55,753 nt of DNA. It comes from an uncultured Candidatus Saccharibacteria bacterium. GTDB taxonomy: Bacteria > Patescibacteriota > Minisyncoccia > Portnoybacterales > UBA2143. Position 1 is the first letter of the stretch. Each line of letters opens with the position of its first letter. Positions 9,692 through 55,753 of this stretch are shown in pieces. The DNA is taken from NCBI GenBank assembly GCA_964548405.1, contig CAZJPW010000004.1:1-55753 (forward strand). Direction: 5' to 3'. A program made the translations under genes and the position numbers. A model generated the notes under the pieces. That model made no database searches, was not told the DNA's origin, and saw nothing but the letters and a program-made list of their open reading frames with translations.

Positions 9692-9692
9692 C

Positions 9693-21791: not shown

Positions 21792-21800
21792 TAATGTTAA

Positions 21801-21884
21801 GCCTTGGTGGCGGAACTGGCATACGCGTCGGGTTTAGGACCCGATTCCCGCAAGGGATTGAGAGTTCGAATCTCTCCCAAGGCA
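21801..21884 (+). tRNA. tRNA-Leu(TAG), class II
   Basis: GCCTTGGTGGCGGAACTGG...TCGGG TTTAGGA CCCGA with a long variable arm, then GAGAGTTCGAATCTCTC CCAAGGC A. The anticodon is TAG. Confidence 0.8.
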
Positions 21885-21886
21885 CA

Positions 21887-32152: not shown

Positions 32153-32224
32153 GGCCCCATCGTCTAGTGGTTAGGACATTAGCTTTTCAAGCTAAGAACA
32201 GGAGTTCGATTCTCCTTGGGGCTA
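32153..32224 (+). tRNA. tRNA-Glu(TTC)
   Basis: GGCCCCATCGTCTAGTGGTTAGGACATTAGCTTTTCAAGCTAAGAACAGGAGTTCGATTCTCCTTGGGGCTA. The first acceptor pair is G1:U72. Confidence 0.8.
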
Positions 32225-42426: not shown

Positions 42427-42499
42427 TACGCCCAGTAGGATTCGAACCTACGACTTCCTCCTCCGCAAGGAGACACTCTATCCACTGAGCTATGGGCGC
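42427..42499 (-). tRNA. tRNA-Arg(GCG)
   Basis: Reverse complement is GCGCCCATAGCTCAGTGGATAGAGTGTCTCCTTGCGGAGGAGGAAGTCGTAGGTTCGAATCCTACTGGGCGTA. The anticodon loop TTGCGGA gives GCG with G37. The first acceptor pair is G1:U72. Confidence 0.7.
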
Positions 42500-42975: not shown

Positions 42976-43061
42976 GGCGGAGAGGGTGGGATTCGAACCC
43001 ACATGTCCAAAAAGGACGCCGCTTTTCAAGAGCGGTGGAATAGCCGTTATCCGACCTCTCC
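42975..43061 (-). tRNA. tRNA-Ser(TGA), class II
   Basis: GGAGAGGTCGGATAACGGCTATTCCACCGCTCTTGAAAAGCGG + long variable hairpin + GTGGGTTCGAATCCCACCCTCTCCGCCA. The anticodon is TGA. Confidence 0.8.
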
Positions 43062-43074
43062 AAGTCGTTTTTTT

Positions 43075-43159
43075 TGGCGGAAGAGGCGGGATTCGAACCC
43101 GCAAGCCCCGAAGGGCGACAGATTAGCAATCTGCTACAATACCATTATGTGACTCTTCC
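43075..43159 (-). tRNA. tRNA-Ser(GCT), class II
   Basis: GGAAGAGTCACATAATGGTATTGTAGCAGATTGCTAATCTGT + variable hairpin CGCCCTTCGGGGC + GCGGGTTCGAATCCCGCCTCTTCCGCCA. The anticodon is GCT. Confidence 0.8.
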
Positions 43160-43935: not shown

Positions 43936-44997
43936 ATGTTTTTATTTAAGAAAAAGCCAAAGAATTGTCTAGGTATTGATATTAGCGCCTCGGCTGTAAA
44001 AATGGTTGAGTTAGGAAAAGAGGATGGCAGACATAAATTGAATAATTACGCAATTTTTTCCCTAGATAAATATTTAAAGAGTAAGGATCAACAGTCTGAT
44101 CTAGAAAATTTTCAGATTTCTAATGAGAAAATAGCCAAGATAATCAAGCAAACTATTAAAGAAGCTAAGATTGAATCCAGGGATGTCTATTTTTCAGTCC
44201 CAGTCTATTCTAGTTTTTATACTCTGATTGATTTTCCAGATATGTCCAAAAAGGAGATTAAAGCAGCTATTCCTTTTGAGGCGAGAAAATATGTGCCCAT
44301 TCCAATTTCAGAAGTTATCCTGGACTGGAGCGTGGTTAATCCGCCTAATAATAAGGATAGCAAGCAAGTTTTGCTTATTGCTGTACCTAAGAAAGTTATC
44401 GATAACTATAATCAGATAGTCGAATTGGCTGGTTTAAATCTTAGAGGAATTGAAGGAGAGACTTTTAGTTTGACCCGCGCTTTGATAGGTAATGATGAAA
44501 GTGTTATTATCCTAATAGATAGTGGCGCTCGTTCCATTAATGTTAGTATTATTGATGATGGCTACATTAGAGTGACTCATAATTTGGAAATGGGCGGTCG
44601 TAAGATAACTAAGGCTATTGCTCAACAGATGAATATGGATTTGGAAAAGGCGGAATATTTCAAAAGGAGGTTGTCTGGCGAGGAATCAACTGATCAAATA
44701 AGCCCTCAATTAAAGGGGGTTGTCCAATCATCTTTGGGAATGATCCTTATTGAGATTAAGAAGATTATCGATAATTATCAAAATAAGTATAATCGTAAGA
44801 TTGAAAAAAGCGTTTTGGTCGGCAGCGGCGTTCATTTGTCAGGATTTTCCGACAGTCTGGTTAATAAATTATCTTTAGATGTCTCTATAGGTGATCCTTT
44901 TGCCCGAATAACCTATCCTGATGTGCTTAAACCGGTCTTAAAGGATTTAGGCCCTCCTTTGGCTGTAGCTATAGGGTTAGCCATGAGGGAAGAATAA
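43936..44997 (+). CDS. pilM: type IV pilus assembly ATPase-fold protein PilM
   Basis: LGIDISASAVKMVEL is an actin-like N-terminus, and the size is typical. Confidence 0.75.
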   Translation: MFLFKKKPKNCLGIDISASAVKMVELGKEDGRHKLNNYAIFSLDKYLKSKDQQSDLENFQISNEKIAKIIKQTIKEAKIESRDVYFSVPVYSSFYTLIDFPDMSKKEIKAAIPFEARKYVPIPISEVILDWSVVNPPNNKDSKQVLLIAVPKKVIDNYNQIVELAGLNLRGIEGETFSLTRALIGNDESVIILIDSGARSINVSIIDDGYIRVTHNLEMGGRKITKAIAQQMNMDLEKAEYFKRRLSGEESTDQISPQLKGVVQSSLGMILIEIKKIIDNYQNKYNRKIEKSVLVGSGVHLSGFSDSLVNKLSLDVSIGDPFARITYPDVLKPVLKDLGPPLAVAIGLAMREE

Positions 44998-45004
44998 AAA
45001 TATT

Positions 45005-45595
45005 ATGGACATCAAATTGATGCCAGAAAAATATAAGAGAAAAGGGATTGGTGGCGGATTGAGCCTATTCAGGAGCGGTCCCTTGAGAATTATTGTCCAG
45101 CTGGCCTCTAAGGCTAATCTTTGGTTTGTTTTGTCGTTTGTTTTATTAATTGGTCTGGTTTTGGTTTGTTTTGGTTTATGGGGGTACAAGATTAATTTAG
45201 ATAAGAATAAGGAAAGCTTAGTCCAGAAAATGGAAGAGCTACAAGCTCAGAGGGATTTAAATTTGGAAAATGATTTTATGGAATTGAAAGAAACGATTGA
45301 AAATTTCAGAAAGATACTGGATAAAAGAATCTATTCTTCAAATATTTTGGAAACACTAGAGGAATTGACTATTCCTGATGTCCAATACAGCAATTTTAAA
45401 GTTAATTTTGGCCGTTTATTACTTGATTTAAAAGCAGAGGCAGCTGACTATAATTCTTTGGCCAAGCAAGTAATAATTTTCAAAAATGATTCCCGGATAA
45501 ACAAAGTTAATTTGTTTGAGGTTAGTTTGGAAAAAAGCGGCTGGGTTGGGACTAACTTGAATCTTGAATTAAATCCAAGTTTTTTGTATGAATAA
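45005..45595 (+). CDS. PilN-like bitopic pilus assembly protein
   Basis: Single TM followed by a coiled coil. Its position immediately after pilM supports the call. Confidence 0.5.
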   Translation: MDIKLMPEKYKRKGIGGGLSLFRSGPLRIIVQLASKANLWFVLSFVLLIGLVLVCFGLWGYKINLDKNKESLVQKMEELQAQRDLNLENDFMELKETIENFRKILDKRIYSSNILETLEELTIPDVQYSNFKVNFGRLLLDLKAEAADYNSLAKQVIIFKNDSRINKVNLFEVSLEKSGWVGTNLNLELNPSFLYE

Positions 45596-46184
45596 AAAAG
45601 TTATTATCATTTTAGTTAATTTGTTGGTCAGTATAGCTTTAGTGTTTGTTTTTGCTGATCCTCTTTGGAATTCAGTTAAAAGTCTGAGGGTTGATATAGA
45701 CAAACGAGGTCAGGAAGTTAAAAAGGTTGAACAGTTTTTAGCTAAGGTACAGGAATTAGAAAAGGAATATCAGGAGATGGGAGGGGAAGGTGTTAAAGAT
45801 ATTGTTTCGGTTTTACCTAAGGAAAAAGATTTACCCTACTTAATGAATCAATTTGAGGTTTTGGCTGCAAGTAACGGCCTATTATTAGAGTCATTAAAAT
45901 TTAACGAAGAAATTGAACGAGAGGGAAAAGACAGCAAGCTTTCTCAAAAGAAATTAAACCAGACTGAAGAGATTATTCCGCTCTTCCCTTATTTATCCGT
46001 TGAAATAAGGTTAAACGGATCTTATCAGGGCCTTAAGAGCTATTTGGAAGATTTAGAAAACAGTGTTCGTTTAATGGATGTTAAAGAGATTGGCTTTAGA
46101 AGTGAACGGGATAAGGGAGGTATTAATTTGTCCGGCCTGTCTATTTTTAAGTTTACTTTAGGAATATTAGTATATTATCAATAA
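45588..46184 (+). CDS. PilO-like bitopic pilus assembly protein
   Basis: N-terminal TM followed by a coiled coil, in the pilM-N-O gene order. Confidence 0.45.
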   Translation: MNKKVIIILVNLLVSIALVFVFADPLWNSVKSLRVDIDKRGQEVKKVEQFLAKVQELEKEYQEMGGEGVKDIVSVLPKEKDLPYLMNQFEVLAASNGLLLESLKFNEEIEREGKDSKLSQKKLNQTEEIIPLFPYLSVEIRLNGSYQGLKSYLEDLENSVRLMDVKEIGFRSERDKGGINLSGLSIFKFTLGILVYYQ

Positions 46185-46507
46185 TGAATTTCAAATCAAT
46201 TTTTTCTAAAGGTTCTTTATCCCAAGATCAGAAACAGCAAATACTGATAAGTGTTTTTATTGTGGTTATTTTTGCCACTCTTATGGTTCTGTATTTTGGC
46301 TTTTGGCGTTCTTCGCCGGCTCCGTCCGATCCGGACTCTCAGACTCCAGGAGTGACTAAGGGCCAAAGTATTAATCTTGAAAAGATTGATTTTGATGTTA
46401 GTTTCTTAAAGACTTCTCGTTTTCAGGATTTAAATATTTATGGGAAGTGGCCCTTAGAAATAGAAGAAAAAGGTCGGCAAAACCCATTTTTGCCATATAA
46501 TCAATGA
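46184..46507 (+). CDS. small membrane protein (PilP-position)
   Basis: One TM helix. Translationally coupled between the pilO-like gene and pilB. Confidence 0.4.
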   Translation: MNFKSIFSKGSLSQDQKQQILISVFIVVIFATLMVLYFGFWRSSPAPSDPDSQTPGVTKGQSINLEKIDFDVSFLKTSRFQDLNIYGKWPLEIEEKGRQNPFLPYNQ

Positions 46508-48138
46508 GTGGTTTAAATAAAAAAGACAACCTAAAAGATAAAAAAGCAGCCAAAGATGATAATCAGACGTTAAAAGTTCCTTTTATAGATTTAGCTCATA
46601 AAGAGATTCCAGTTGAAGTGTTAAAAGAGGTTCCTGAAGAGGCGGCAGCTTTTTATAATTTTGTTCCCATAGCCAGAAAAGGTAATATCCTTGAAGTGGG
46701 CATGGTCGATACAGATAATCTTAAAGCCAAAGAAGCTTTAAGATTTATTACTCGGAGAAGTGGCCTGGAGTCAAAAATATTTGCCATTAGTTCAGTTGAT
46801 TTTGAAAACGTTTTAAGGCAGTATCAGAGTCTTCGGGGCGAAGTTAATAAAGCACTTAAGGAGTTGGAAGAAGAAATAGAGGCAGGAGAAGGCGCTGAAT
46901 CATTCAAAGGGAAGCCCAAGGAGATGGCTGAAAAAATTGTTGCCGAAGCGCCAATCACTAGAATTGTTGCAGTTATCTTAAGACATGCGACCGAGGGCAA
47001 AGCTTCTGACGTACATATTGAGGCAGCCGAAAATAAAGTTAAAGTTCGTTTTAGGGTTGATGGAGTCCTTTATACTAGTTTAGTCCTGCCTAGAGATATT
47101 CATTCAGCTGTTGTTTCCCGGATTAAGATACTTTCTGATTTAAAGATTGATGAGACAAGAATACCTCAAGATGGTCGATTCCATACTGTGATTGCTGGGA
47201 AAAAGATTGATTTTCGTGTTTCTACGTTACCGACAGCTGGAGGAGAAAAAGTTGTTTTAAGAGTTTTGGACCTATCAGCCGGCCTAAGGGATTTCATTAG
47301 TTTAGGTTTAGAGGGATATAATTTAGAAATTTTAAAGAAAGAAATTAAGCAGCCCTTTGGTATGATTTTACTTACTGGTCCGACTGGTTCTGGTAAGTCA
47401 ACCACCCTTTATGCTATCCTTGATAGCTTGAATCGGGAAGGAATTAATATTATTAGCTTAGAAGACCCGGTTGAATATTTTGTCGAAGGAATTAGCCAGT
47501 CACAGATTATGCCTGAAATAGGATATACTTTTGCTTCAGGTCTGCGTCATATTTTAAGACAAGATCCTGATGTAATTATGGTAGGAGAGATTAGGGATCA
47601 GGAAACGGCTGAGTTAGCCATCCATGCCGCCTTGACTGGGCATATTCTTCTTTCTACTTTACATACTAATGACGCTATAGGAGTGATTCCGCGCCTGATT
47701 GATATGAAAATTGGATCATTTCTTTTACCTTCTTCGTTAAATTTAATGATTGCTCAGCGTTTAGTTAGGCGGCTTTGTGAGAAATGTAAAAAGGAAATTC
47801 CTGCTCCGTCTAAAGTTGTTGAAATAATTGAAAGTGAGTTGACTGAGTTGAGTCCGGTGCATAAAGAATCCTTTTCTTGGAAAAAACCTTTCAAAATTTA
47901 TCGGCCGGTTGGATGTAAGTTTTGTGGCAATAAGGGGACAAAAGGTCGAATTGCCCTTTATGAAATATTGCAAATGACTCCTCAATTAGAGGAAATCATT
48001 GCCGGAGAGTTAAGTGAAGTGAGAATAAAGGAAGAGGCCCACAGACAGGGTATGATTACGATGAAGCAAGATGGAATTACCAAGTCACTTCAAGGAATTA
48101 TTTCTTTTGAGGAAATGATTAGGATGGTTGAGGAATAG
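46504..48138 (+). CDS. pilB: type IV pilus assembly ATPase PilB (GspE family)
   Basis: Walker A LLTGPTGSGKSTTLYA, the Asp box and His box, and a tetra-Cys motif CEKCKK...CKFCGN. Confidence 0.85.
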   Translation: MSGLNKKDNLKDKKAAKDDNQTLKVPFIDLAHKEIPVEVLKEVPEEAAAFYNFVPIARKGNILEVGMVDTDNLKAKEALRFITRRSGLESKIFAISSVDFENVLRQYQSLRGEVNKALKELEEEIEAGEGAESFKGKPKEMAEKIVAEAPITRIVAVILRHATEGKASDVHIEAAENKVKVRFRVDGVLYTSLVLPRDIHSAVVSRIKILSDLKIDETRIPQDGRFHTVIAGKKIDFRVSTLPTAGGEKVVLRVLDLSAGLRDFISLGLEGYNLEILKKEIKQPFGMILLTGPTGSGKSTTLYAILDSLNREGINIISLEDPVEYFVEGISQSQIMPEIGYTFASGLRHILRQDPDVIMVGEIRDQETAELAIHAALTGHILLSTLHTNDAIGVIPRLIDMKIGSFLLPSSLNLMIAQRLVRRLCEKCKKEIPAPSKVVEIIESELTELSPVHKESFSWKKPFKIYRPVGCKFCGNKGTKGRIALYEILQMTPQLEEIIAGELSEVRIKEEAHRQGMITMKQDGITKSLQGIISFEEMIRMVEE

Positions 48139-48159
48139 GATAATAAATATATATAAATT

Positions 48160-48594
48160 ATGAAAATTACAAAGCAGGGATTTACATTAATTGAGCTTTT
48201 AGTGGTAGTAGCTATAATAGGTCTTTTAGCTACCATTATCTTATACAGTGTTAGTACAATTAAAGCCAAGAGCCGTGATGCTCGTCGGGTCACGGATGTT
48301 AAAGTTATTCAGCAGGGATTATCAATGTATTACAATGATAATTTTCTTTATCCTGATTCTGGCGGGAGCGCTATTGAAATTAATGGAAGTAGCGATGATA
48401 TGTCGCAAGCATTGATTAATAATGGATCAATGAATGGTCTGCCAGTTGATCCATTAAATGGAGATATGGGTGGAGTGACGTATAAATACTATTATCAATC
48501 ACTCGATAGTCAGGATGATTACGAACTAACTTTCTATTTAGAGACAAATACAGTTCAAAATAGGTCGCAAGGAATTAATGTAGTTAAACCATAA
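48160..48594 (+). CDS. type IV pilin (prepilin, class III signal)
   Basis: MKITKQG|FTLIELLVVVAIIGLLATI, with Glu5 in the mature protein. Confidence 0.85.
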   Translation: MKITKQGFTLIELLVVVAIIGLLATIILYSVSTIKAKSRDARRVTDVKVIQQGLSMYYNDNFLYPDSGGSAIEINGSSDDMSQALINNGSMNGLPVDPLNGDMGGVTYKYYYQSLDSQDDYELTFYLETNTVQNRSQGINVVKP

Positions 48595-48606
48595 TACATA
48601 AAAATT

Positions 48607-48978
48607 ATGAAAAAAATACTAATTATTGAAGATGATCCATTTCTTAGTGAAATGTATGCCGCTAAGTTTACTGAGAGCGGTTTTGAAACGGAGGTGGCAT
48701 CTGACGGTAAGGAGGGTTTAGCTAAAATAGAGAATTTTCAGTCTGATTTGGTCCTTTTGGATATTGTTTTACCCAAAATGGACGGTTTTGAAATATTAAA
48801 GAAGATTAAAGAGAAGGAAGAATTAAAAGAAGTTCCGATTGTCTTGTTGACTAATTTGGGTCAAAAGAACGAAGTTGAAAAGGGATTATCTTTAGGTGCT
48901 GACGAATACATTATTAAGGCCCACTTTACGCCTACAGCAGTGGTGGCCAAAGTAAAGGAAATATTAAGTAAAAAATAA
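48607..48978 (+). CDS. stand-alone CheY-like response-regulator receiver (PilH-like)
   Basis: IIEDDPF...LVLLDIVLPKMDGFEIL...PIVLLTNLG... Confidence 0.8.
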   Translation: MKKILIIEDDPFLSEMYAAKFTESGFETEVASDGKEGLAKIENFQSDLVLLDIVLPKMDGFEILKKIKEKEELKEVPIVLLTNLGQKNEVEKGLSLGADEYIIKAHFTPTAVVAKVKEILSKK

Positions 48979-48981
48979 TAT

Positions 48982-50049
48982 ATGAGTGAATATCAAAAAA
49001 AACTTGATGATATTTTGAATCATGCGATCAAAGATGGAGCCAGTGATGTCCATCTTTCAGCTGGTCGGACGCCTACTTTTCGGGTTCACGGCTCTTTGAT
49101 TGCTTATGATAAATATCCTGTTATGACCGAGAAAGATACTCAAGAATTGGCTTCTGTTATCCTTCCAGAAGACCGCCGGGAGCAATTCTATAGTCAAAGA
49201 GATATTGATTTATCATATGCTCATCAAGATAAGAGTAGATTTAGGGTTAATGTTTATCATCAGCTTGGTCAGATCAGTATTGCTATGCGTTTGATTCCGA
49301 ATAAGATTAGGAATATTGATGAATTAAATTTGCCGGCAGCCTGTCATAATTTTACCAAGGCGCCTCAAGGATTCTTTTTAGTAGTTGGTCCTTCTGGTCA
49401 AGGTAAATCAGCTGCTCTGGTTGCTCTAGTTGATGAAATAAATCACATTCGCCAGGATCATGTGATTACAATTGAGGATCCAGTAGAATATTTATTTAAG
49501 GAAGATAAGTGTATTATTGATCAGCGTGAGGTGGGCGAAGATGTTCAAAATTTTCATCGGGGTTTAAGGGAAGCTTTGCGTCAGGATCCGGATGTGATTA
49601 TGATTGGTGAGATGCGTGATCCTGAAACCATCAGTAGCGCGGTAACGGCGGCTGAAACAGGTCATTTGGTCCTGGCTACTTTACATACTAATACAGCTGC
49701 TCAGACAATTGACCGGATTATAGATAGTTTTCCTCCTCATCAACAGAATCAAATCAGGATACAGTTAGCATCTACTGTTTTAGGCATTCTTTCCCGTCGT
49801 TTAATTCCTTGTCTAAAGGGCGAGGTGATTAATGCAGTTGAATTAATGATTGCCAATTCAGCTATTAGGAACTTAATTAGGGAGGGCAAGACTCACCAAA
49901 TCGATATGATTATTGAAACCGGGTCTGAAGAAGGAATGATTTCTTTAAATCGTTCTTTGGCTGATTTAACTAATAGCGGGATGATTACCAGAGAACATGC
50001 AGAAGCGCATTCGCTCAATGTTAATGAATTAAGGCTGTTGCTGAAATAA
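48982..50049 (+). CDS. pilT: twitching-motility retraction ATPase PilT
   Basis: Walker A VVGPSGQGKSAAL and the PilT-type motifs, at 355 aa. Confidence 0.8.
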   Translation: MSEYQKKLDDILNHAIKDGASDVHLSAGRTPTFRVHGSLIAYDKYPVMTEKDTQELASVILPEDRREQFYSQRDIDLSYAHQDKSRFRVNVYHQLGQISIAMRLIPNKIRNIDELNLPAACHNFTKAPQGFFLVVGPSGQGKSAALVALVDEINHIRQDHVITIEDPVEYLFKEDKCIIDQREVGEDVQNFHRGLREALRQDPDVIMIGEMRDPETISSAVTAAETGHLVLATLHTNTAAQTIDRIIDSFPPHQQNQIRIQLASTVLGILSRRLIPCLKGEVINAVELMIANSAIRNLIREGKTHQIDMIIETGSEEGMISLNRSLADLTNSGMITREHAEAHSLNVNELRLLLK

Positions 50050-50061
50050 TAAATATAAATT

Positions 50062-51267
50062 ATGAAATTTAATTATCTTGTTCGGGATCAGAAGGGAGAG
50101 ACCCAAACTGGAACAATAGATGCATCTAATAAACAGACTGCCCTAAAAGCTCTTCAAGATCGCGGCTTTATAATCGTTAAGCTAGAATTAATTGAAAAGG
50201 CATCTTTTTTTGCCAAGAGGATTAAATTTTTAGAGAGAGTTAAAAGAAAAGAGGTCTTTGTCTTCTTTCGTCAGTTAGCCGTTTTGGTTGACGCCAATGT
50301 GCCCTTGGTCCAGTCTTTGAAATCACTTAGTCAGCAAATTGAAAGCGATTATTTTAGAGAGATTATTTTTGGAGTAGCCAATGATATTGATGGAGGAATG
50401 GCTTTTTCTAAAGCCTTGTCTAAATATCCCAGAGTCTTCTCTACTTTTACTATAAATTTAATGAAAACAGGTGAAGTTAGCGGACGTCTTCAAGAATCAT
50501 TAAATTATTTGGCTGATCATCTTGAAAATGAATACTACCTTATTTCAAAAATTCGAGGAGCAATGACTTATCCAATTTTTATTCTGAGTACTTTTTTAAT
50601 TATTGGTGTCCTAGTGATGGTTATGGTTATTCCACAGTTGACTTCCATCTTAACCGAAGCTGGTCAAGATCTGCCCTGGTCAACTAAAATAGTTATCTTT
50701 TTAAGTAATTTTATTAGGAGTTGGGGTTGGTTATTCTTATTATTTGGTGTTGCCGCTGGCTTTGCCTTTTGGCGTTATAAAAATACAGATAAAGGGAGAG
50801 TTGTTTGGGATACGATCAAGTTGAAAACTCCCATTTTTGGAAAGATTCTTCAAAAAACATATTTGGCTCGGTTGTCTAATAATTTGGGCGCTCTAATTAA
50901 AGGGGGCGTTTCAGTTATTCAAAGTTTGAATGTTTCTGGCCAGGTGGTGGGTAATGCTGTTTTTCAACAGATTCTTTTTAAAGCCAGAGACGAAATTAAA
51001 GTAGGACGGAGTATTAGCTCTTCTCTGGAACAATATCAGGAGTTTCCTACCTTGTTTACCCAAATGATTAAAACGGGTGAACAAACGGGTAAGCTAGATA
51101 GTATTTTGGAAAAGTTAAGCACATTTTATAACAAGGAAGTTGAAAATGTGGTTGATAATCTAAGTCAGTTAATTGAACCGATTTTACTTGTGTTTTTAGG
51201 GATTGGGGTGAGTATTTTAGTCTTTTCCGTGTTTATGCCTATTTATAATTTAGCTGGAGTGATGTAA
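50062..51267 (+). CDS. pilC: type IV pilus platform protein PilC (GspF family)
   Basis: Duplicated GspF domains and three TM segments. Confidence 0.8.
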   Translation: MKFNYLVRDQKGETQTGTIDASNKQTALKALQDRGFIIVKLELIEKASFFAKRIKFLERVKRKEVFVFFRQLAVLVDANVPLVQSLKSLSQQIESDYFREIIFGVANDIDGGMAFSKALSKYPRVFSTFTINLMKTGEVSGRLQESLNYLADHLENEYYLISKIRGAMTYPIFILSTFLIIGVLVMVMVIPQLTSILTEAGQDLPWSTKIVIFLSNFIRSWGWLFLLFGVAAGFAFWRYKNTDKGRVVWDTIKLKTPIFGKILQKTYLARLSNNLGALIKGGVSVIQSLNVSGQVVGNAVFQQILFKARDEIKVGRSISSSLEQYQEFPTLFTQMIKTGEQTGKLDSILEKLSTFYNKEVENVVDNLSQLIEPILLVFLGIGVSILVFSVFMPIYNLAGVM

Positions 51268-51339
51268 AAATTAGACAATTTGTGGTACAATAAAGGGTCG
51301 AAAAAAAATAAGTTAAAATATAGCTATTAAGGAAAGGGG

Positions 51340-51801
51340 GTGAAAAAAATGATAAAGTATTTTCACGAAAAGAAGAACCAAAAAGGTTTTACCTTAATTG
51401 AACTGTTAGTGGTTATCGCCATTATTGGTGTCTTAGCTACTATTGTCTTGGTTTCTTTGAATACAGCTAGGAGTAAGGCGCGTGACAGTCGAAGGGTTAG
51501 TGATCTAAGGCAGTTAGCTTTGGCTTTAGAAATGTATTATGATGATAACGATGCTTATATCGATTCTTCTGGTGCATGTGTTACAGTTAATGAAACAAAC
51601 TTAGGCGCTTTGACTACTACTTATATGGGGACTATTCCTGATGATCCAGGCACTGGAGACTATTCTTACGGAGCAGCTACTGACGAGCAGGATTATGTTT
51701 TGAAGGCAGTAGTAGAAAATGCTCTGCCTGATGGCGCTTATAGGACAACTGTTTATGGTTGTACTTGTGTTGGAGCCGCAGAATATTGTATTAGGCCTTA
51801 A
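51340..51801 (+). CDS. second type IV pilin with an unusually long 16-aa leader
   Basis: RBS ggaaagggggtgaaaaaaATG, then MKKMIKYFHEKKNQKG|FTLIELLVVIAIIGVLATI. The C-terminus is Cys-rich (CTCVGAAEYC). Confidence 0.8.
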   Translation: MKKMIKYFHEKKNQKGFTLIELLVVIAIIGVLATIVLVSLNTARSKARDSRRVSDLRQLALALEMYYDDNDAYIDSSGACVTVNETNLGALTTTYMGTIPDDPGTGDYSYGAATDEQDYVLKAVVENALPDGAYRTTVYGCTCVGAAEYCIRP

Positions 51802-51810
51802 TTAGTTTTT

Positions 51811-51880
51811 AAACAGTCTGATAGCCGAAGACCTCATGAGAGTTGTCTCGTGGGGTTAGGGTTGTCAGACTGTTTGTTTT
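51811..51880 (+). terminator. long structured hairpin/terminator after the second pilin
   Basis: An 11-bp outer stem aaacagtctga / tcagactgttt encloses an internally structured loop of about 43 nt, followed by gttttt. Confidence 0.5.
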
Positions 51881-51932
51881 TGTAACTTAAACTACGAAAA
51901 CTAAATTTTTTAAAATCGCTTATCCCTACCCT

Positions 51933-51960
51933 CCCCGCTACGCGGGTCGGGCGCGCGCCC
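51933..51960. other. GC-rich palindromic island in the AT-rich intergenic region
   Basis: cccgc-tac-gcggg is immediately followed by the perfect 12-nt palindrome gggcgcgcgccc. Confidence 0.5.
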
Positions 51961-52006
51961 ACACCTACGATTTAAAAAATTTGTTTTCTTCGTTTAATAG
52001 TAAAAT

Positions 52007-52759
52007 ATGTATCTTTTAGTTTTTGTATTTGGTTTAGTAATCGGGAGTTTTCTCAATGTGGTTATCTGCCGGTTAAAGACTAAAGAAACAATTTTTTTCA
52101 ATCGTTCTTATTGTCCAGAATGCAAAGCAGTTTTGAGATGGTATGATTTAATTCCGATATTAAGCTTTTTAATTCAAAGAGGTAAGTGCCGTTATTGCGA
52201 AAAGAAAATCAGCTGGCAATATCCTCTAGTAGAAATATCCACGGCCTGTTTATTTCTACTAATTTTCAATTTTCAATTTTCAATTTTCAATTTAATTTAT
52301 TACCTGATAATAGTTAGTCTTCTAATAGTTATATTCACCTATGACTTAAAACATTATTTAATTCCTGATAGAATAGTTTTTCCTGGTATGATTATTACCT
52401 TGCTTTATCAGGTTTTGAGTAATGATTTTTATCGTCCTGTTTTAGCTGGTTTGGCTACTTCGGGCTTTTTTCTTCTTTTGGTTTTAATCACTAAAGGTAA
52501 AGGCATGGGCTTGGGTGATGTTAAGCTAGTTGGCTTAATGGGTTTAATTCTATCTTGGCCTAATGTTTTGATTGCCCTATTCTTGTCTTTTTTCTCCGGA
52601 GCGGTTATCGGCTTATTACTAATTGTTTTTAGTAAGAAAGGTTTAAAGTCGCAAATTCCCTTTGGCCCCTTTTTGAGCGGAGCAACAGTTTTGACAATGT
52701 TTTACAGTCAATTTTTGATTGATTGGTGTTATAGGGTGCTTCCAATTCTTGCTCTTTAA
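52007..52759 (+). CDS. pilD: prepilin peptidase PilD (A24 family)
   Basis: N-terminal Zn-binding CxxC...CxxC (CPECK...CRYCEK) and a polytopic A24 core (GLGDVKL). Confidence 0.8.
   Translation: MYLLVFVFGLVIGSFLNVVICRLKTKETIFFNRSYCPECKAVLRWYDLIPILSFLIQRGKCRYCEKKISWQYPLVEISTACLFLLIFNFQFSIFNLIYYLIIVSLLIVIFTYDLKHYLIPDRIVFPGMIITLLYQVLSNDFYRPVLAGLATSGFFLLLVLITKGKGMGLGDVKLVGLMGLILSWPNVLIALFLSFFSGAVIGLLLIVFSKKGLKSQIPFGPFLSGATVLTMFYSQFLIDWCYRVLPILAL
52261..52293 (+). repeat. heptanucleotide SSR (aattttc)x4.7 inside pilD
   Basis: aattttcaattttcaattttcaattttcaattt encodes FNFQFSIFNL. Confidence 0.8.
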
Positions 52760-52817: not shown

Positions 52818-53300
52818 ATGGATAAAAATATATATATCATCCTACTGTTGGTTTTGGCAGTAGTGTTTGGTGGATATTACTATTATCAGTCGACTACTTC
52901 GGAGGATCGGATTCAGCCAGAGGAACCGGCTGGACAATCTTCGGGTCAGTCGGATGAACAACCATCAGGAGGCAGTCAGGGTGAAATATTGGAAGGCGGC
53001 CGATGTCAGCCATCTGCCAATATTGTGCTCGATGGTGCTTTTGAAAAGGTTGAAAATGGTGTTTTCCATTTTACACTTAAGAATAAGCAGAATTTAGAAA
53101 TGGTCAATTTGAACGACGAAACTGTTTTTTCCGAAATACTTTTTTCAGCTGACTTGGAAAGAATAAGTGATAAAGAAATATCTTTGGCTGATTTGGCTCA
53201 AGGAGACCAAGTTTCTCTATTAATTGCTTGTGGTCAGGCAGAGGGTGATCCAAAAGTGGCTACGGCCATCAGACGTATAGAAGTTGAGGCAAGGAAATAG
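52818..53300 (+). CDS. membrane-anchored hypothetical protein with a Gln/Ser/Gly-rich linker
   Basis: RBS aaggagaaaaaaatATG. N-terminal TM (IYIILLLVLAVVFGGYYYY), then the low-complexity stretch PEEPAGQSSGQSDEQPSGGSQ. Confidence 0.5.
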   Translation: MDKNIYIILLLVLAVVFGGYYYYQSTTSEDRIQPEEPAGQSSGQSDEQPSGGSQGEILEGGRCQPSANIVLDGAFEKVENGVFHFTLKNKQNLEMVNLNDETVFSEILFSADLERISDKEISLADLAQGDQVSLLIACGQAEGDPKVATAIRRIEVEARK

Positions 53301-53304: not shown

Positions 53305-53706
53305 ATGGCGAAAATAAGGACTAATACTTTAAAGTTTGTTTTTGATATTCAGAATTATCCCCTAGAAGCTCTTTACGGGGCTGCTTATGTTTTCTTTGAT
53401 AAAGCCTATATTTTCCTAGACAGCCGGGCTAAGAATAAGATTGAGGTTTCTCTAAGGGGTAAAAGGAAATTAAATAAAAAACAACTAGAGGAATTGAAGG
53501 GGGAGTTCTTAAACGAACTCCTTAATTATACTCTGCGTATCAAATTAGCTAAGAGCAATAAAAAGCTTAGAGAGTTTGTTGTTGGCCAAGCTTTAATTTC
53601 AGCTTATGGGCTTGAACAAGAAACTGACAAGGAAGAACTTAAATATCAAGATGATCCATTGGGTATTGCTGTGCCTTGGGAGGAGAAATACGGTAAGAAA
53701 AAATGA
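53305..53706 (+). CDS. hxsD: HxsD-like small protein of the His-Xaa-Ser system
   Basis: Contains ELLNYTLRIKL, matching the LLNDYxLRE signature that I recall names the HxsD family. I re-called the start at MAKIRTN, after the upstream stop and an aggaaa RBS. Confidence 0.45.
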   Translation: MAKIRTNTLKFVFDIQNYPLEALYGAAYVFFDKAYIFLDSRAKNKIEVSLRGKRKLNKKQLEELKGEFLNELLNYTLRIKLAKSNKKLREFVVGQALISAYGLEQETDKEELKYQDDPLGIAVPWEEKYGKKK

Positions 53707-53903
53707 AGATAAAATTCAATAAGAAAATATACAGCTTAAGAGCGGTAAAATTAGCCATTAAAGATTATCACAATTTGGCTGATTTTAGTTTGGAACAAAA
53801 AGGGAAATATATCATTGTTACTTTAACCAAAATAGATAAAGATGTTAAAGAAATAATTAGAGATGAGTTTTGTAATTATGTCCTTGGATTTGAAAAAAAT
53901 TAA
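53703..53903 (+). CDS. small paralogue of the HxsD N-terminal region (66 aa)
   Basis: MKIKFNKKIYSLRAVKLAIKDYHNLADFSLEQKGKYIIVTL parallels MAKIRTNTLKFVFDIQNYPLEALYGAAYVFFDKAYIFLD..KIEVSL. Its start overlaps the hxsD stop (ATGA) and its end overlaps the radical-SAM start. Confidence 0.4.
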   Translation: MKIKFNKKIYSLRAVKLAIKDYHNLADFSLEQKGKYIIVTLTKIDKDVKEIIRDEFCNYVLGFEKN

Positions 53904-55329
53904 ATACAATCAGCTAGGTTTTTTCCGTTTTAAGAAATTTAGGAACAAGTATCTTTTAACCAATGATTCGGGCCAGTATTTGTTTTTAACTCAAAAAGAG
54001 TTTAAGGATTTTTTGGCTAATAAATTGAAAAAAGATACAAAAACATATTTATCCTTAAAAGAAAGGAATTTTCTTAAAAATGAAATGGATCTAACTGAAT
54101 CCGTAGATAGATATCGTTTTAAAAATGAGTTTCTTTTTGGCGGGCCAAGCTTGCATATAGTTGTAGTCACTTTGCGCTGTAATCTTAAATGCGTTTATTG
54201 TCACGCCAGCGCTCAGGGCATGAATAAAAAGGGCTTAGACATGGATAAAAAAACTGCTCAAGCGGTAGTTGATAAGATTTTTGAAACAACCAGTCCTTAT
54301 GTAGCCATTGAATTTCAGGGCGGCGAACCTTTGGTTAACTGGCCGATAGTCAAATATATTGTTGAATATGCCCAGAAGAAGAATAAAAAGGCTAAGAAAG
54401 AATTAGAGCTGCGTTTAGTTTCAAATTTTGTTTTAATGACTGAGAGTAGGTTTAAGTATTTGATTGATAATAGGGTGGCGATGTGCCTTTCTTTGGATGG
54501 ATCGGCTAAAGTCCACGATAGAAATAGGATTTTGGTAGATGGTAAAGGGAAAAGTTATCAATATGCAGCTAAATGGGCTAAAAAGTTTTTTAAGTTTTAT
54601 CCTCAGTTAAGGAAAAAAGGATATATTTTTAAAATAGGGGCCTCTATTACGGTCAGCCGCTTTTCCTTGGCTTATTACAAGCAAATAGTTGACGAATTCA
54701 TTAAACTTGGTTTTGATGATATTTATTTACGGCCCTTAAACCCTTTTGGTTTTAGTAGGGGTCATTTTCGAAAAATCGGCTATAGTGTTGATGAGTACAT
54801 TAAATTTTATAAGAAAGCAATTAATTACATGATTGAGATAAATCTTAAAGGCAAGAAATTTAGAGAAAAAGCTGCTTGTATTTTTTTAACCAAGATTTTA
54901 ACCGAATATGATCCTAATCATTTGGAATTGCGTTCACCCTGTGGAGCGGGTATTGGTCAGTTAGCCTATAATTACAACGGCCAAGTTTATACTTGTGATG
55001 AGGGCAGAATGATGTCAATGATGGGTGATGAAAGTTTTTGTTTAGGTAATGTTCATAAAAATACTTATCAAGAATTGGTTAGTAGTCCGGTGGTCCGGAC
55101 TTTGTGTACAGCTTCCTGTTTAGATGGGTTGCCTCATTGTAATGATTGCGTTTACAAGCCATACTGCGGGGTTTGTCCGATTTACAATTATTCAGAGCAG
55201 GGTAATATTTTTGGCCAAATGCCAACTAATGAGCGTTGCCAAATTAATATGGCTATTTTGGATTTTTTGTTTGAAAAACTCCAAGATAAAAAGGCCGGAC
55301 CAATCCTTGAATCCTGGCTGGAGAAATAG
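53863..55329 (+). CDS. radical SAM/SPASM-domain maturase (HxsB/HxsC-like, AnSME-related)
   Basis: The CxxxCxxC cluster LRCNLKCVYCHAS lies at nt 54178-54201. The C-terminal SPASM Cys cluster is CGAGIGQ...YTCDEG...CLGN...CTASC...HCNDCVYKPYCGVCP. An N-terminal extension of about 95 aa precedes the cluster. An alternative start is at 53878. Confidence 0.85.
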   Translation: MSFVIMSLDLKKIKYNQLGFFRFKKFRNKYLLTNDSGQYLFLTQKEFKDFLANKLKKDTKTYLSLKERNFLKNEMDLTESVDRYRFKNEFLFGGPSLHIVVVTLRCNLKCVYCHASAQGMNKKGLDMDKKTAQAVVDKIFETTSPYVAIEFQGGEPLVNWPIVKYIVEYAQKKNKKAKKELELRLVSNFVLMTESRFKYLIDNRVAMCLSLDGSAKVHDRNRILVDGKGKSYQYAAKWAKKFFKFYPQLRKKGYIFKIGASITVSRFSLAYYKQIVDEFIKLGFDDIYLRPLNPFGFSRGHFRKIGYSVDEYIKFYKKAINYMIEINLKGKKFREKAACIFLTKILTEYDPNHLELRSPCGAGIGQLAYNYNGQVYTCDEGRMMSMMGDESFCLGNVHKNTYQELVSSPVVRTLCTASCLDGLPHCNDCVYKPYCGVCPIYNYSEQGNIFGQMPTNERCQINMAILDFLFEKLQDKKAGPILESWLEK

Positions 55330-55389
55330 AGTTATCCACAGAAGAATAATTCGGATTTTTTAGAGAAAACTGGTAAAATGGAGATATAA

Positions 55390-55753
55390 ATGAAAAAAGT
55401 TAAACTGCCTCAAATTAAAAAAGACATTAAGGCCTTTTTGACGAGCGAAGAAGGCAGGATTAATAAAAAAACTGTAGCTAAAACAGCTATGAGTCTTTTG
55501 GCTTTGGGAATTGGCTTGGCAGGAGTCATGAAGGCAGATTCGACTTCTGCAGCTACTACTCATGCTTCTCATGGATCTCATTCTTCCCATGGTTCCCATT
55601 CTTCCCATGGTTCCCATAGTTCTCATTCTTCCCACGGCTCCCATGGTTCCCACGGCTCACATGGTTCTCATAGCTCTCACGGTTCTCATAGTAGTCACGG
55701 CTCACATGGCTCCCACGGTTCCCACGGCTCACATGGTTCTCATGGTTCACACG
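55390..55753 (+). CDS. hxsA: His-Xaa-Ser repeat precursor (HxsA-like), partial, runs off the window end
   Basis: GGAG RBS at about 55380. The product is MKKVKLPQIKKDIKAFLTSEEGRINKKTVAKTAMSLLALGIGLAGVMKADSTSAATT followed by HASHGSHSSHGSHSSHGSHSSHSSHGSHGSHGSH... continuing to the end of the window. Confidence 0.8.
   Translation, partial: MKKVKLPQIKKDIKAFLTSEEGRINKKTVAKTAMSLLALGIGLAGVMKADSTSAATTHASHGSHSSHGSHSSHGSHSSHSSHGSHGSHGSHGSHSSHGSHSSHGSHGSHGSHGSHGSHGSH
55561..55753 (+). repeat. 9/18-nt coding tandem repeat (cat-NNN-tcN)n
   Basis: cattcttcccatggttcc units encode H-S-S-H-G-S. The same repeat generates the spurious antisense ORFs at 55360-55750. Confidence 0.85.

What the first reader, a model, noticed from the sequence alone, without database searches (positions are those of the whole stretch)
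53305..55753. His-Xaa-Ser (Hxs) radical-SAM peptide-maturation system directly downstream of the type IV pilus locus
A compact co-directional cassette holds four genes in the same orientation with overlapping stops and starts.
- An HxsD-like protein carrying an LLNYTLR motif.
- A 66-aa paralogue of the HxsD N-terminus.
- A 488-aa radical-SAM enzyme with CxxxCxxC (nt 54178-54201) and a C-terminal Cys-rich SPASM domain.
- A precursor whose C-terminal region is an uninterrupted (His-Gly/Ser-Ser)n array.
This is the architecture of the poorly characterised Hxs system, which is defined only by comparative genomics; its chemistry and function are unknown. SPASM radical-SAM enzymes of the AnSME clade oxidise Ser or Cys side chains, so every Ser of the H-x-S triplet is a candidate modification site. 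A His-rich product of that kind would be a strong metal-binding peptide. The window ends inside hxsA, so a second radical-SAM gene (the HxsB/HxsC pair) may lie just beyond.
Basis: partly seen in the sequence, partly recalled or inferred. Interest (0 to 1): 0.85.

Follow-up and report, generated by a model that had tools for sequence, protein, structure and literature searches.

The report
HxsA4-type His-Xaa-Ser maturation cassette
This is a real but already catalogued His-Xaa-Ser radical-SAM cassette from an uncultivated Patescibacteria bacterium; it is the HxsA4 subtype, which lacks the usual second enzyme HxsC, and its canonical cousin was shown in 2026 to be an anti-phage defence in E. coli.

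Summary
Window 53305-55753 holds four co-directional genes, and each product passes the curated NCBIfam cut-off:
- HxsD: 60.5 bits against a cut-off of 50.
- A 66-aa HxsD-like protein: 78.3 against 41.
- HxsB radical-SAM/SPASM maturase: 528 against 370.
- The 5' part of an HxsA4 repeat protein: 91.7 against 55.

A near-identical public contig completes hxsA4 at 166 aa, with 36 uninterrupted H-(G/S/A)-S triplets.

- The function of Hxs is no longer unknown. Li et al. (Nat Commun 2026) showed that the canonical E. coli HxsD-B-C-A system blocks phage DNA entry.
- This locus is not that four-gene form. No HxsC lies next to hxsB, the repeats are neutral rather than Arg-rich, and HxsA4 has no peptidoglycan-binding domain.
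- HxsB looks most like the RRE-bearing peptide maturase CteB, not a sulfatase maturase.

In 80 related loci from Patescibacteria, Elusimicrobia and Omnitrophota the D-d-B-A core recurs. Extra co-directional radical-SAM genes follow it in 44 of the 48 loci with enough downstream sequence.

Verdict: a new member of a known, database-defined kind. The chemistry and role of this subtype are untested. Interest is moderate.

The parts
53305..53706 (+). hxsD (133 aa): an HxsD domain (residues 14-99, LLNYTLR at 72-78) followed by a clade-specific conserved C-terminal tail, DDPLGIAVPWEEKYGKK.
53703..53903 (+). hxsD-like gene (66 aa), a short paralogue of the HxsD core domain.
   Evidence: NF038315 scores 78.3 bits against a cut-off of 41. 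hhalign against the HxsD family gives 88.5% probability and E = 2.8e-6. The gene sits between hxsD and hxsB in 55 of 81 loci.
53863..55329 (+). hxsB (488 aa; alternative start at 53878): radical-SAM/SPASM peptide maturase.
   Evidence: TIGR03978 scores 528 bits against a cut-off of 370, matched end to end. Pfam Radical_SAM and Fer4_12 also match. The AF2 model has pLDDT 93.1. The top Foldseek hits in the PDB are CteB 5wgg (E = 8.5e-23, 483 columns) and then anSMEcpe.
53920..54132 (+). N-terminal RRE-like domain of HxsB (residues about 20-90), the predicted leader-binding module.
   Evidence: The AF2 secondary structure is three strands (22-26, 29-33, 39-43) followed by three helices (44-51, 60-67, 77-87). 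The full-length alignment to the RRE-bearing CteB agrees. This is predicted, not shown.
54178..54201 (+). CxxxCxxC motif (C106, C110, C113) for the SAM-binding [4Fe-4S] cluster.
   Evidence: Read directly from the sequence. The three Cys are invariant in 88 homologues.
54940..55239 (+). SPASM region of HxsB (C360 to C459), ligands for the auxiliary Fe-S clusters.
   Evidence: C360, C378, C419, C426, C429, C435, C438 and C459 are invariant. Pfam SPASM scores 20.3 bits, just under its gathering threshold of 21.5. Many homologues carry a precomputed PF13186 hit.
55390..55560 (+). hxsA4 N-terminal part: a Lys-rich conserved leader (PQIKKDIKAFLTSEEGRINKK), then a hydrophobic segment (TAMSLLALGIGLAGVM) and a short polar linker.
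   Evidence: NF038313 HxsA4 scores 91.7 bits (truncated) and 129.9 bits (full length) against a cut-off of 55. The leader consensus xKxKlPkIKKDIKaFLtSEEGKInKK is conserved in 58 precursors from several phyla.
55561..55753 (+). hxsA4 repeat array, cut by the window end: 21 of 36 H-(G/S/A)-S triplets. The complete gene would end at window-equivalent position 55890.
   Evidence: Translation, the full gene on L001 at 11528-12028, the repeat census and Tandem Repeats Finder.
52818..53300 (+). 160-aa protein with an N-terminal membrane anchor. Its stop is 4 nt before the hxsD start. It is possibly co-transcribed; membership of the system is uncertain.
   Evidence: No Pfam, NCBIfam or PADLOC family matches. 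It is conserved between pilD and hxsD in 8 close loci. A hydrophobic N-terminus is present.

Best explanation
The locus is an HxsA4-type His-Xaa-Ser system in the chromosome of a low-GC Patescibacteria (CPR) bacterium. It comprises hxsD, an hxsD-like gene, hxsB and hxsA4. A downstream Cys-rich membrane protein, outside the window, is probably co-transcribed.

Shown here:
- All four proteins belong to the curated Hxs families.
- The gene order D-d-B-A is conserved across phyla.
- The precursor has three parts: a strongly conserved Lys-rich leader of about 30 aa, a hydrophobic segment, and an uninterrupted H-(G/S/A)-S array ending in an aromatic residue.

Inferred mechanism:
1. In the cytoplasm the conserved leader is bound by the N-terminal RRE-like domain of HxsB. 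The two small HxsD-fold proteins act as adaptors or chaperones.
2. HxsB uses SAM with one radical-SAM [4Fe-4S] cluster and two auxiliary SPASM clusters. It abstracts hydrogen atoms and installs covalent modifications on His/Ser residues of the repeats.
3. The positive-inside leader and the hydrophobic segment then drive export with an N-in, C-out topology. The modified poly-His tail is thereby displayed at, or released from, the outer face of the membrane.
4. By homology with the E. coli HXS system, the most likely role is an envelope-located barrier to incoming phage DNA.

Caveats. The repeats here are neutral and there is no peptidoglycan-binding domain, so His-mediated metal binding is a serious alternative output. 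Other radical-SAM enzymes encoded downstream may add further modifications.
For: Family membership:
- HxsD 60.5 bits against 50, HxsD-like 78.3 against 41, HxsB 528 against 370, HxsA4 91.7 (truncated) and 129.9 (full length) against 55.
- Public homologues at 50-82% identity are named HxsB or HxsD by NCBI in Portnoy-, Falkow- and Magasanikbacteria and in the Parcubacteria group.

Conservation:
- Among the 81 loci, hxsD, the hxsD-like gene and an HxS-repeat gene are all present in 43.
- hxsD and a repeat gene occur without the hxsD-like gene in 15.
- Most of the remaining loci are cut by contig ends.

Enzyme:
- CxxxCxxC and the SPASM Cys are invariant.
- The AF2 model has pLDDT 93.1 and a three-strand, three-helix N-terminal domain.
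- The best PDB match is CteB, aligned over the full length.

Precursor: conserved leader, hydrophobic segment and C-terminal Y/W.

The repeat DNA is diverse in codon use, so the protein sequence is under selection.

Functional precedent, canonical type only: anti-phage activity, radical-SAM-dependent processing, a +8 Da modification on an HxS motif, and export of HxsA (PMC13128918).
Against: - No experiment exists for the HxsA4 subtype.
- The E. coli model needs HxsC, a peptidoglycan-binding domain and basic residues in the repeats. None of these is present here.
- With x = G/S/A, the only charge comes from His, which weakens the electrostatic DNA-binding analogy.
- HxsD is not an RRE-type fold, and its partner here is unknown. 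In E. coli it binds HxsC.
- Export and topology are inferred from hydrophobicity and charge only; no signal-peptide predictor was available.
- The locus sits in conserved chromosomal synteny next to pilus genes, not in an obvious defence island.
- PADLOC 2023 has no model that recognises it.
Confidence: 0.8

Rival explanations
1. The product is a RiPP-type metal-binding peptide or surface metal store. HxsB modifies Ser/His in every triplet. The exported poly-His product chelates Zn, Ni or Cu for uptake, buffering or detoxification, and has no role in phage defence.
For: - There are 36 His residues spaced every third position, with small neutral residues between them. Across 58 relatives x is G in 551 triplets, S in 166 and A in 142.
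- There is no DNA-binding-type basic residue and no peptidoglycan-binding domain, unlike canonical HxsA.
- The locus is chromosomal and syntenic, not island-like.
Against: - No metal transporter, metallochaperone or metal-responsive regulator was identified among the genes next to the core. Those tested had no family match or were radical-SAM enzymes.
- The only experimental precedent for an Hxs system is anti-phage (PMC13128918).
- A plain poly-His tract would bind metal without a radical-SAM enzyme, so the strict linkage to HxsB/HxsD needs another reason.
Confidence: 0.3
2. The D-d-B-A genes are only the front end of a larger multi-enzyme radical-SAM pathway. In this contig that pathway would include a HemN-like enzyme, a B12-dependent radical-SAM enzyme, an HxsC-like radical-SAM enzyme, an AsnB-like amidotransferase, a YrdC/Kae1-type carbamoyltransferase and an ATP-grasp enzyme. 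Together they would rebuild the HxS chain extensively into a product unlike the E. coli effector.
For: - Of the 48 loci with at least 6 kb downstream of hxsB, 44 carry additional radical-SAM genes there: 153 genes, 151 of them co-directional.
- Upstream, only 9 of 55 loci do (20 genes).
- The main family hits HxsC in 105 of 109 members and HxsC4 in 103 of 109.
- Arrays are tightly packed, for example L036 12129-16927.
- The same gene families recur near the core in the closest relatives L004, L006, L009 and L011-L013.
Against: - In this contig a perfect sigma-70 promoter (L001 12916-12944) and a strong terminator (13525-13560) bracket an unrelated 153-aa gene between the core and the radical-SAM operon. 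The two are therefore separate transcription units.
- The downstream radical-SAM protein tested on this contig (72.6 bits) is far below the curated HxsC cut-off, and the best E-values among the 109 family members suggest the same for the rest.
- Proximity alone does not show a shared substrate.
Confidence: 0.3
3. HxsA4 is an accessory of type IV pilus or competence biology, such as a surface factor acting with the pilus. This would explain the position immediately after pilD.
For: - The pilus operon (PilB, PilT, PilC, pilins, PilD) lies directly upstream in 13 of 81 loci. These include relatives whose HxsB is only about 50% identical: L038, L042 (a complete Nealsonbacteria genome) and L062.
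- The 160-aa gene bridges pilD and hxsD with a 4-nt gap.
- A polytopic membrane protein with a weak Peptidase_A24 match lies next to the radical-SAM arrays in 9 other loci.
Against: - 68 of 81 loci have other, lineage-specific upstream neighbours, such as DnaJ or ClpP.
- HxsA4 has no prepilin G|F(T/S)LxE motif.
- Canonical Hxs systems have no pilus linkage.
- The adjacency may simply be retained synteny in small genomes.
Confidence: 0.1
4. HxsA4 is an ordinary unmodified His-rich surface protein, and its neighbourhood with a radical-SAM enzyme is fortuitous.
For: Low-complexity His/Gly/Ser proteins occur widely. The repeat region also hits collagen-like adhesin models weakly.
Against: - An HxS-repeat gene with the same conserved leader lies close to hxsB, almost always just downstream, in at least 58 loci from several phyla.
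- Curated HxsA4 model scores are far above the cut-off.
- The collagen-like hits are far below their cut-offs.
Confidence: 0.03

Closest known systems
Canonical HXS anti-phage system, HxsD-HxsB-HxsC-HxsA (E. coli, Li et al. Nat Commun 2026, PMC13128918; example read here: Aeromonas salmonicida plasmid pAsa4, locus L082)
   Same: - HxsB is orthologous: 36% identity over 96% of its length, and both pass TIGR03978.
- Both have an HxsD-family protein with the LLN(D)YxLR(E) motif.
- Both substrates have a hydrophobic N-terminal segment and tandem H-x-S triplets.
- Both are compact co-directional cassettes.
   Different: - No adjacent HxsC, and an extra 66-aa HxsD paralogue.
- HxsD carries a conserved C-terminal tail.
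- HxsA4 has a conserved leader of about 30 aa ahead of the hydrophobic segment.
- It has 36 neutral repeats (x = G/S/A), against the five basic-residue-rich repeats reported for E. coli HxsA (HRS/HSS triplets in the Aeromonas example).
- It has no peptidoglycan-binding domain and ends in an aromatic residue.
- The host is a CPR bacterium, which to my knowledge is not a classical diderm, so a 'periplasmic' mechanism cannot be transferred directly.
NCBIfam HxsA4 subtype models (NF038313 HxsA4, NF038315 HxsD-like, NF038332 'rare' HxsC4)
   Same: HxsA4 and the HxsD-like protein both exceed their curated cut-offs. The locus is a straightforward member of this subtype.
   Different: - No protein here reaches the HxsC4 cut-off. 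The nearest candidate scores 38.4 bits against 500.
- I found no paper in the searchable library that describes this subtype.
CteB and related RRE-radical-SAM-SPASM RiPP maturases (PDB 5wgg; also SuiB, TigE, ChlB)
   Same: The predicted three-domain architecture (RRE-like, radical-SAM barrel, SPASM with two auxiliary clusters) aligns over the full length (E = 8.5e-23, TM about 0.7). This implies leader-guided modification of a peptide.
   Different: - Only about 21% identity.
- The substrate is a Cys-poor His/Gly/Ser repeat, not a Cys-containing sactipeptide core, so thioether chemistry is unlikely in this protein.
- NCBIfam scores for PapB, SCIFF and similar maturases are far below their cut-offs.
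   Same: It is the second-best structural neighbour (E about 1e-19, TMt 0.82-0.85). It shares the SPASM fold and acts on Ser/Cys side chains.
   Different: - anSME has no RRE domain.
- HxsB scores 82.9 bits on TIGR03942 against a cut-off of 349.
- The only mass shift reported for an Hxs substrate is +8 Da, not the -2 Da of formylglycine formation.

Membership tests
His-Xaa-Ser (Hxs) system, as defined by TIGRFAMs/NCBIfam equivalogs | HxsB radical-SAM/SPASM maturase (TIGR03978) at or above the curated cut-off | tested here: met
   528 bits against 370, with profile positions 3-466 of 466 matched.
His-Xaa-Ser (Hxs) system, as defined by TIGRFAMs/NCBIfam equivalogs | HxsD small protein (TIGR03976) carrying the LLNDYxLRE-type motif | tested here: met
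   60.5 bits against 50. The motif ELLNYTLRI is at residues 71-79.
His-Xaa-Ser (Hxs) system, as defined by TIGRFAMs/NCBIfam equivalogs | Adjacent substrate protein with tandem His-Xaa-Ser repeats | tested here: met
   36 uninterrupted triplets, beginning 60 nt after hxsB. The protein matches the HxsA4 model, not the classic HxsA model; no classic HxsA model was among the hits at E of 1 or below.
His-Xaa-Ser (Hxs) system, as defined by TIGRFAMs/NCBIfam equivalogs | Second radical-SAM enzyme HxsC (TIGR03977) paired with HxsB | tested here: not met
   HxsB is the only ORF of at least 100 aa in the window with a CxxxCxxC motif. The genes directly after hxsA4 are not radical-SAM enzymes. The nearest HxsC-like protein starts 6.1 kb beyond hxsA4 and scores 72.6 bits against 267.9. 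It has 21% identity to Aeromonas HxsC and lacks that protein's N-terminal domain of about 100 aa.
HxsA4 subtype (NCBIfam NF038313 / NF038315 / NF038332) | HxsA4 repeat protein at or above the cut-off | tested here: met
   91.7 bits for the window fragment and 129.9 bits for the full protein, against 55.
HxsA4 subtype (NCBIfam NF038313 / NF038315 / NF038332) | HxsD-like short protein (NF038315) at or above the cut-off | tested here: met
   78.3 bits against 41.
HxsA4 subtype (NCBIfam NF038313 / NF038315 / NF038332) | HxsC4 radical-SAM protein (the model name itself calls it 'rare') | tested here: not met
   The best candidate on the contig scores 38.4 bits against 500. Related loci carry HxsC4-like genes with a best E-value of 1.1e-85.
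HXS anti-phage defence system (Li et al. 2026) | Four-gene set HxsD-HxsB-HxsC-HxsA | tested here: not met
   The order here is HxsD, HxsD-like, HxsB, HxsA4, with no HxsC. The paper states that 99.6% of systems have the order D-B-C-A.
HXS anti-phage defence system (Li et al. 2026) | [quoted passage not shown] | tested here: not met
   The full HxsA4 ends right after the repeats (...HSSY). No Pfam domain matches. x is G/S/A and there is no Arg or Lys in the array. For contrast see Aeromonas HxsA.
HXS anti-phage defence system (Li et al. 2026) | Export of the processed effector out of the cytoplasm | tested here: inconclusive
   A 16-residue hydrophobic segment is preceded by a Lys-rich leader and followed by small residues (TSAA). 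No signal-peptide or topology predictor was available.
HXS anti-phage defence system (Li et al. 2026) | Protection against phage by blocking DNA entry | not testable with these tools
   This needs experiments. PADLOC-DB 2023 has no Hxs model and gave only weak viperin-type hits to the radical-SAM core.
RRE-dependent radical-SAM/SPASM RiPP maturases | CxxxCxxC motif, a 7-Cys SPASM motif and an N-terminal RRE-like domain | tested here: met
   The Cys residues are invariant. The AF2 model has a three-strand, three-helix N-terminal domain. The model aligns over its full length to CteB. The RRE function itself is predicted, not shown.
Anaerobic sulfatase-maturing enzymes (anSME) | Score at or above the cut-off on TIGR03942 / PRK13758 | tested here: not met
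   82.9 bits against 349.45, and 63.4 bits against 441.

The most novel reading that the evidence does not exclude
In Patescibacteria, Elusimicrobia, Omnitrophota and other uncultivated phyla, the HxsD/HxsD-like/HxsB/HxsA4 core may be the entry module of a much larger radical-SAM pathway that has not been described. That pathway would hold up to seven further co-directional radical-SAM genes (HxsC-like, RRE-less PapB/HxsB-like, HemN-like and B12-dependent), often with a Cys-rich bitopic membrane protein and sometimes an A24-like polytopic membrane protein. It would rewrite a long poly(His-Gly-Ser) chain into a heavily modified surface polymer. The role of that polymer, whether phage or DNA gatekeeping at a pilus-bearing envelope, metal handling or host attachment, would differ from the E. 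coli effector.
Probability: 0.25. Interest if true: 0.7.

Novelty: new member of a known kind. Interest (0 to 1): 0.38.

Why it matters
The Hxs family now has one experimentally defined role, blocking phage DNA entry in E. coli. The published survey placed 99.7% of systems in Pseudomonadota. This locus and its 80 relatives show that a distinct branch, recognised by databases but unstudied, is common in CPR bacteria and other uncultivated phyla. That branch has no adjacent HxsC and carries a very long neutral repeat.

If the subtype also defends against phage, it would extend a new defence principle to organisms with tiny genomes and a different envelope. If it does not, it shows that the same radical-SAM chemistry has been put to another use.

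The substrate should also suit experiments. It should purify on Ni resin by its own sequence, and it offers 36 identical candidate sites. That could help solve the chemistry behind the unexplained +8 Da modification.

Tried and rejected
- PADLOC-DB 2023 scan of the four proteins and both flanking unknowns: no Hxs or other defence model, only weak viperin-type hits to the radical-SAM core.
- BLASTP of HxsD against the 66-aa protein: not significant. Only the profile-profile comparison shows the relationship.
- Test of whether the Cys-rich bitopic proteins of about 300 aa next to hxsA4 (x286 and clusters 37, 51 and 36) form one family. hhalign matches only the membrane helix or is weak, so homology is not shown. 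An earlier local hhalign script timed out.
- Pfam and NCBIfam on the 160-aa upstream and 286-aa downstream proteins: nothing.
- Rfam on the whole window: only 11 tRNAs, and no riboswitch or leader RNA near the cassette.
- Literature search for CPR together with radical SAM and SPASM: nothing relevant.
- Exact-sequence cluster look-up: the proteins are in public collections but carry no names there.
- Lipoprotein reading of HxsA4, rejected. The Cys seen in relatives lies 8-10 polar residues after the hydrophobic segment, and it is absent from the window protein.
- Prepilin reading of HxsA4, rejected. It has no G|F(T/S)LxE motif.

Full report
**1. Observation**

The four ORFs are present on the + strand as described.
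- hxsD runs from 53305 to 53706 (133 aa), with LLNYTLR at residues 72-78.
- A 66-aa ORF (53703-53903) overlaps the hxsD stop by 4 nt.
- A 488-aa ORF (53863-55329) overlaps the 66-aa ORF by 41 nt. Public gene calls also use M6 as the start, giving 483 aa.
- After a 60-nt spacer with a GGAG, a fourth ORF starts at 55390 and runs off the window.

CxxxCxxC lies exactly at nt 54178-54201. In 88 homologues C106, C110 and C113 are invariant. So are C360, C378, C419, C426, C429, C435, C438 and C459, which fit a SPASM pattern.

A public ENA contig, L001, differs from the window at 2 of 11,891 overlapping bases, so I used it to extend the window. The complete fourth gene encodes 166 aa. It has a 57-residue N-terminal part, then 27 HGS, 8 HSS and 1 HAS triplets without interruption, and a terminal Tyr.

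At the DNA level the array is diverged. Tandem Repeats Finder gives period 9, 35.6 copies and 73% matches, and there are 18 different 9-nt units. The repeat is therefore maintained at the protein level and is not a recent slippage product.

**2. Identity**

Each protein passes its curated NCBIfam cut-off (for the full-length HxsA4):

| Protein | Model | Score (bits) | Cut-off (bits) |
|---|---|---|---|
| HxsD | TIGR03976 | 60.5 | 50 |
| HxsD-like (66 aa) | NF038315 | 78.3 | 41 |
| HxsB | TIGR03978 | 528 (end to end) | 370 |
| HxsA4, window fragment | NF038313 | 91.7 | 55 |
| HxsA4, full length | NF038313 | 129.9 | 55 |

Pfam adds Radical_SAM and Fer4_12, plus a SPASM hit just under threshold.

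The 66-aa protein is related to the HxsD core only at profile level. BLASTP gives E = 6.7. hhalign gives 88.5% probability and E = 2.8e-6.

Homologues of HxsB at 50-82% identity, and of HxsD, are abundant in metagenomes. Where they are named, NCBI calls them HxsB or HxsD in Portnoy-, Falkow- and Magasanikbacteria, the Parcubacteria group and the Patescibacteria group.

The window has 35.7% GC and many tRNA genes. It looks like ordinary CPR chromosome.

**3. What is known**

The family was defined by comparative genomics by Haft and Basu, as cited in PMC9062424. It is no longer without a function.

Li et al. (PMC13128918, 2026) report the following for E. coli HxsD-HxsB-HxsC-HxsA:
- The system gives broad anti-phage protection by blocking DNA entry.
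[quoted passage not shown] - A +8 Da modification maps to an SHRSS motif.
- HxsC binds HxsD.
- Periplasmic HxsA binds DNA.
- 99.7% of systems were found in Pseudomonadota, and 99.6% have the order D-B-C-A.

**4. How this locus differs**

I read a canonical example from Aeromonas plasmid pAsa4.
- Its HxsD has 96 aa, HxsB 484 aa (36% identical to ours), HxsC 401 aa and HxsA 192 aa.
- That HxsA has a short Sec-type signal, the repeat HRSHRSHSSHRSHSSHRSH, and a C-terminal region where the paper places the peptidoglycan-binding domain.

Here the picture differs in five ways.
- There is no adjacent HxsC. HxsB is the only ORF of at least 100 aa in the window with a CxxxCxxC motif.
- After hxsA4 come a 286-aa membrane-anchored Cys-rich protein (9-nt gap) and a 153-aa protein.
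- A second HxsD-fold gene is inserted between hxsD and hxsB.
- HxsD carries an extra, almost invariant C-terminal tail, DDPLGIAVPWEEKYGKK.
- The substrate has a long conserved leader, 36 neutral repeats and no further domain.

The nearest HxsC-like gene starts 6.1 kb beyond hxsA4, at L001 18126-19067.
- Its best NCBIfam match is HxsC, but at 72.6 bits against a cut-off of 267.9.
- It is 21% identical to Aeromonas HxsC and lacks that protein's N-terminal 100 residues.

**5. Structure predictions**

HxsB models with pLDDT 93.1. Residues 22-87 form three strands followed by three helices, which is the topology of RiPP recognition elements. Foldseek against the PDB gives these matches, in order:
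1. The RRE-bearing sactisynthase CteB, aligned over the full length (5wgg, E = 8.5e-23).
2. anSMEcpe (E about 1e-19).
3. ChlB, TigE and SuiB.

HxsB is thus best described as a leader-guided peptide maturase. The sulfatase-maturase model scores only 82.9 bits against 349.

**6. Comparative genomics**

I analysed the best 80. All are MAGs labelled as uncultivated lineages. They include Patescibacteria groups, Elusimicrobia, Omnitrophota, Schekmanbacteria and some bins labelled Spirochaetes, Planctomycetia or Myxococcales.

ORF calling and clustering gave these results:
- The order D-d-B-A holds in most loci. All three non-HxsB parts are present in 43 of 81 loci, and D plus A without the HxsD-like gene in 15. 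Most of the rest are truncated by contig ends.
- The precursors share the leader consensus xKxKlPkIKKDIKaFLtSEEGKInKK followed by a hydrophobic segment.
- They carry 4 to 46 HxS triplets. x is G in 551 triplets, S in 166 and A in 142.
- They end in SY, QW, SW or GGWC.

Context specific to the closest clade:
- The type IV pilus operon lies directly upstream in 13 loci. Three of these have HxsB only about 50% identical to ours.
- The 160-aa gene lies before hxsD in 8 loci.
- The 286-aa gene lies right after hxsA4 in 8 to 10 loci.

**7. An unexpected regularity**

Extra radical-SAM genes follow the core. Of the 48 loci with at least 6 kb downstream of hxsB, 44 carry at least one. That is 153 genes, 151 of them co-directional and often overlapping. 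Upstream, only 9 of 55 loci carry any (20 genes).

Three families make up most of these genes:
- The largest has 123 genes of about 313 aa in 45 loci. Of 109 members scanned, 105 match HxsC and 103 match HxsC4, below the cut-offs as far as seen.
- A second has 40 genes of about 359 aa. It resembles PapB and HxsB but lacks the RRE.
- HemN-like enzymes occur in 17 loci.

On this contig the downstream operon encodes, in order:
- a HemN-like radical-SAM enzyme;
- an AsnB-like amidotransferase;
- a B12-dependent radical-SAM enzyme;
- the HxsC-like radical-SAM enzyme;
- a Sua5/YrdC protein;
- a TsaD/HypF-like protein;
- an ATP-grasp enzyme.

It is separated from the core by the 153-aa gene. That gene has its own perfect TTGACA-17-TATAAT promoter and a terminator with a 16-bp stem. 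So the linkage is by neighbourhood, not by a shared transcript.

It points to something real at the scale of the neighbourhood.

**8. Mechanism**

Shown: family membership, the conserved gene order, the conserved leader and repeats, and the invariant cluster ligands.

Inferred:
1. The leader is bound in the cytoplasm by the RRE-like domain of HxsB, with the two HxsD-fold proteins as helpers.
2. HxsB modifies His/Ser in the repeats by radical chemistry.
3. The Lys-rich leader and hydrophobic segment direct N-in, C-out export, so the modified tail is displayed outside the membrane.
4. By homology, the role is a barrier to incoming phage DNA.

The last step is the weakest. This effector lacks Arg, a peptidoglycan anchor and HxsC. 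Metal binding by the His array is a credible alternative.

**9. Verdict**

The finding is real and correctly named, and curated models already cover it. It is a new member of a known kind that is poorly studied in this subtype. The interest is moderate. It lies in the absence of an adjacent HxsC, the long neutral repeat, the CPR host, and the wider radical-SAM neighbourhood that the published survey of HXS systems does not mention.

Noticed in passing
L001 13651-21467 (beyond the window); related loci such as L036 12129-16927, L032 and L052: Additional co-directional radical-SAM genes follow the Hxs core in 44 of the 48 loci with at least 6 kb downstream (153 genes). Upstream, only 9 of 55 loci have any. 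The families are HxsC/HxsC4-like (about 313 aa, in tandem arrays of up to 6), RRE-less PapB/HxsB-like (about 359 aa), HemN-like and B12-dependent.
   Followed up: partly
window 53650-53703 (HxsD residues 116-133): HxsD of this clade ends in a nearly invariant tail, DDPLGIAVPWEEKYGKK, after a variable low-confidence linker. The tail is absent from the 96-aa canonical HxsD. It looks like a docking motif for an unknown partner.
   Followed up: partly
L001 12037-12897 (9 nt after hxsA4, beyond the window); L035 10837-11757, L036 9933-10820, L029 5710-6720: Proteins of about 290-330 aa with one N-terminal membrane helix and 8-16 Cys sit next to hxsA4 in at least 19 loci. They fall into four clusters that are unrelated by BLAST. 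Profile comparison matched only the membrane helix, so common ancestry is not shown.
   Followed up: yes
L005 2718-3923, L025 5338-6516 and 7 further loci: A polytopic membrane protein of about 400 aa (7-10 hydrophobic segments) with a weak Peptidase_A24 match (24.7 bits, threshold 26.5) lies next to the HxsC-like arrays. It is a candidate leader peptidase. It is absent from the window's contig stretch, where the ordinary PilD lies two genes upstream of hxsD.
   Followed up: partly
window 43936-52759: A complete type IV pilus operon (PilM/O, PilB, pilin, response regulator, PilT, PilC, pilin, PilD) ends just before the cassette. The same adjacency occurs in 13 of 81 loci, including relatives whose HxsB is only about 50% identical (L038, L042, L062).
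   Followed up: partly
L001 12916-12944 and 13525-13560 (beyond the window): A perfect TTGACA-17-TATAAT promoter and a terminator with a 16-bp stem bracket a single 153-aa gene, a secreted-looking protein with a weak SgcJ/EcaC-like hit. This gene is wedged between the Hxs core and the downstream radical-SAM operon.
   Followed up: no
window 55552-55560 (HxsA4 residues 55-57): Most HxsA4 relatives have a Cys one or two residues before the first HxS triplet (for example SAACSHASH). The window protein has Thr-Thr there instead.
   Followed up: no
L015 9542-10061, L020 2824-3366: Runs of N inside hxsA4 in two public MAGs show that the repeat is hard to assemble. Repeat counts in short-read assemblies, including the 36 here, may be under- or over-estimates.
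   Followed up: no
window 26-111, 1239-1311, 6366-6448, 7557-7629, 9618-9767, 21801-21884, 32153-32224, 42427-42499, 42978-43159: Eleven tRNA genes are scattered through the window. The tRNA match at 21801-21884 lies inside the listed ORF 21770-23062, so that ORF's start is probably over-extended.
   Followed up: no
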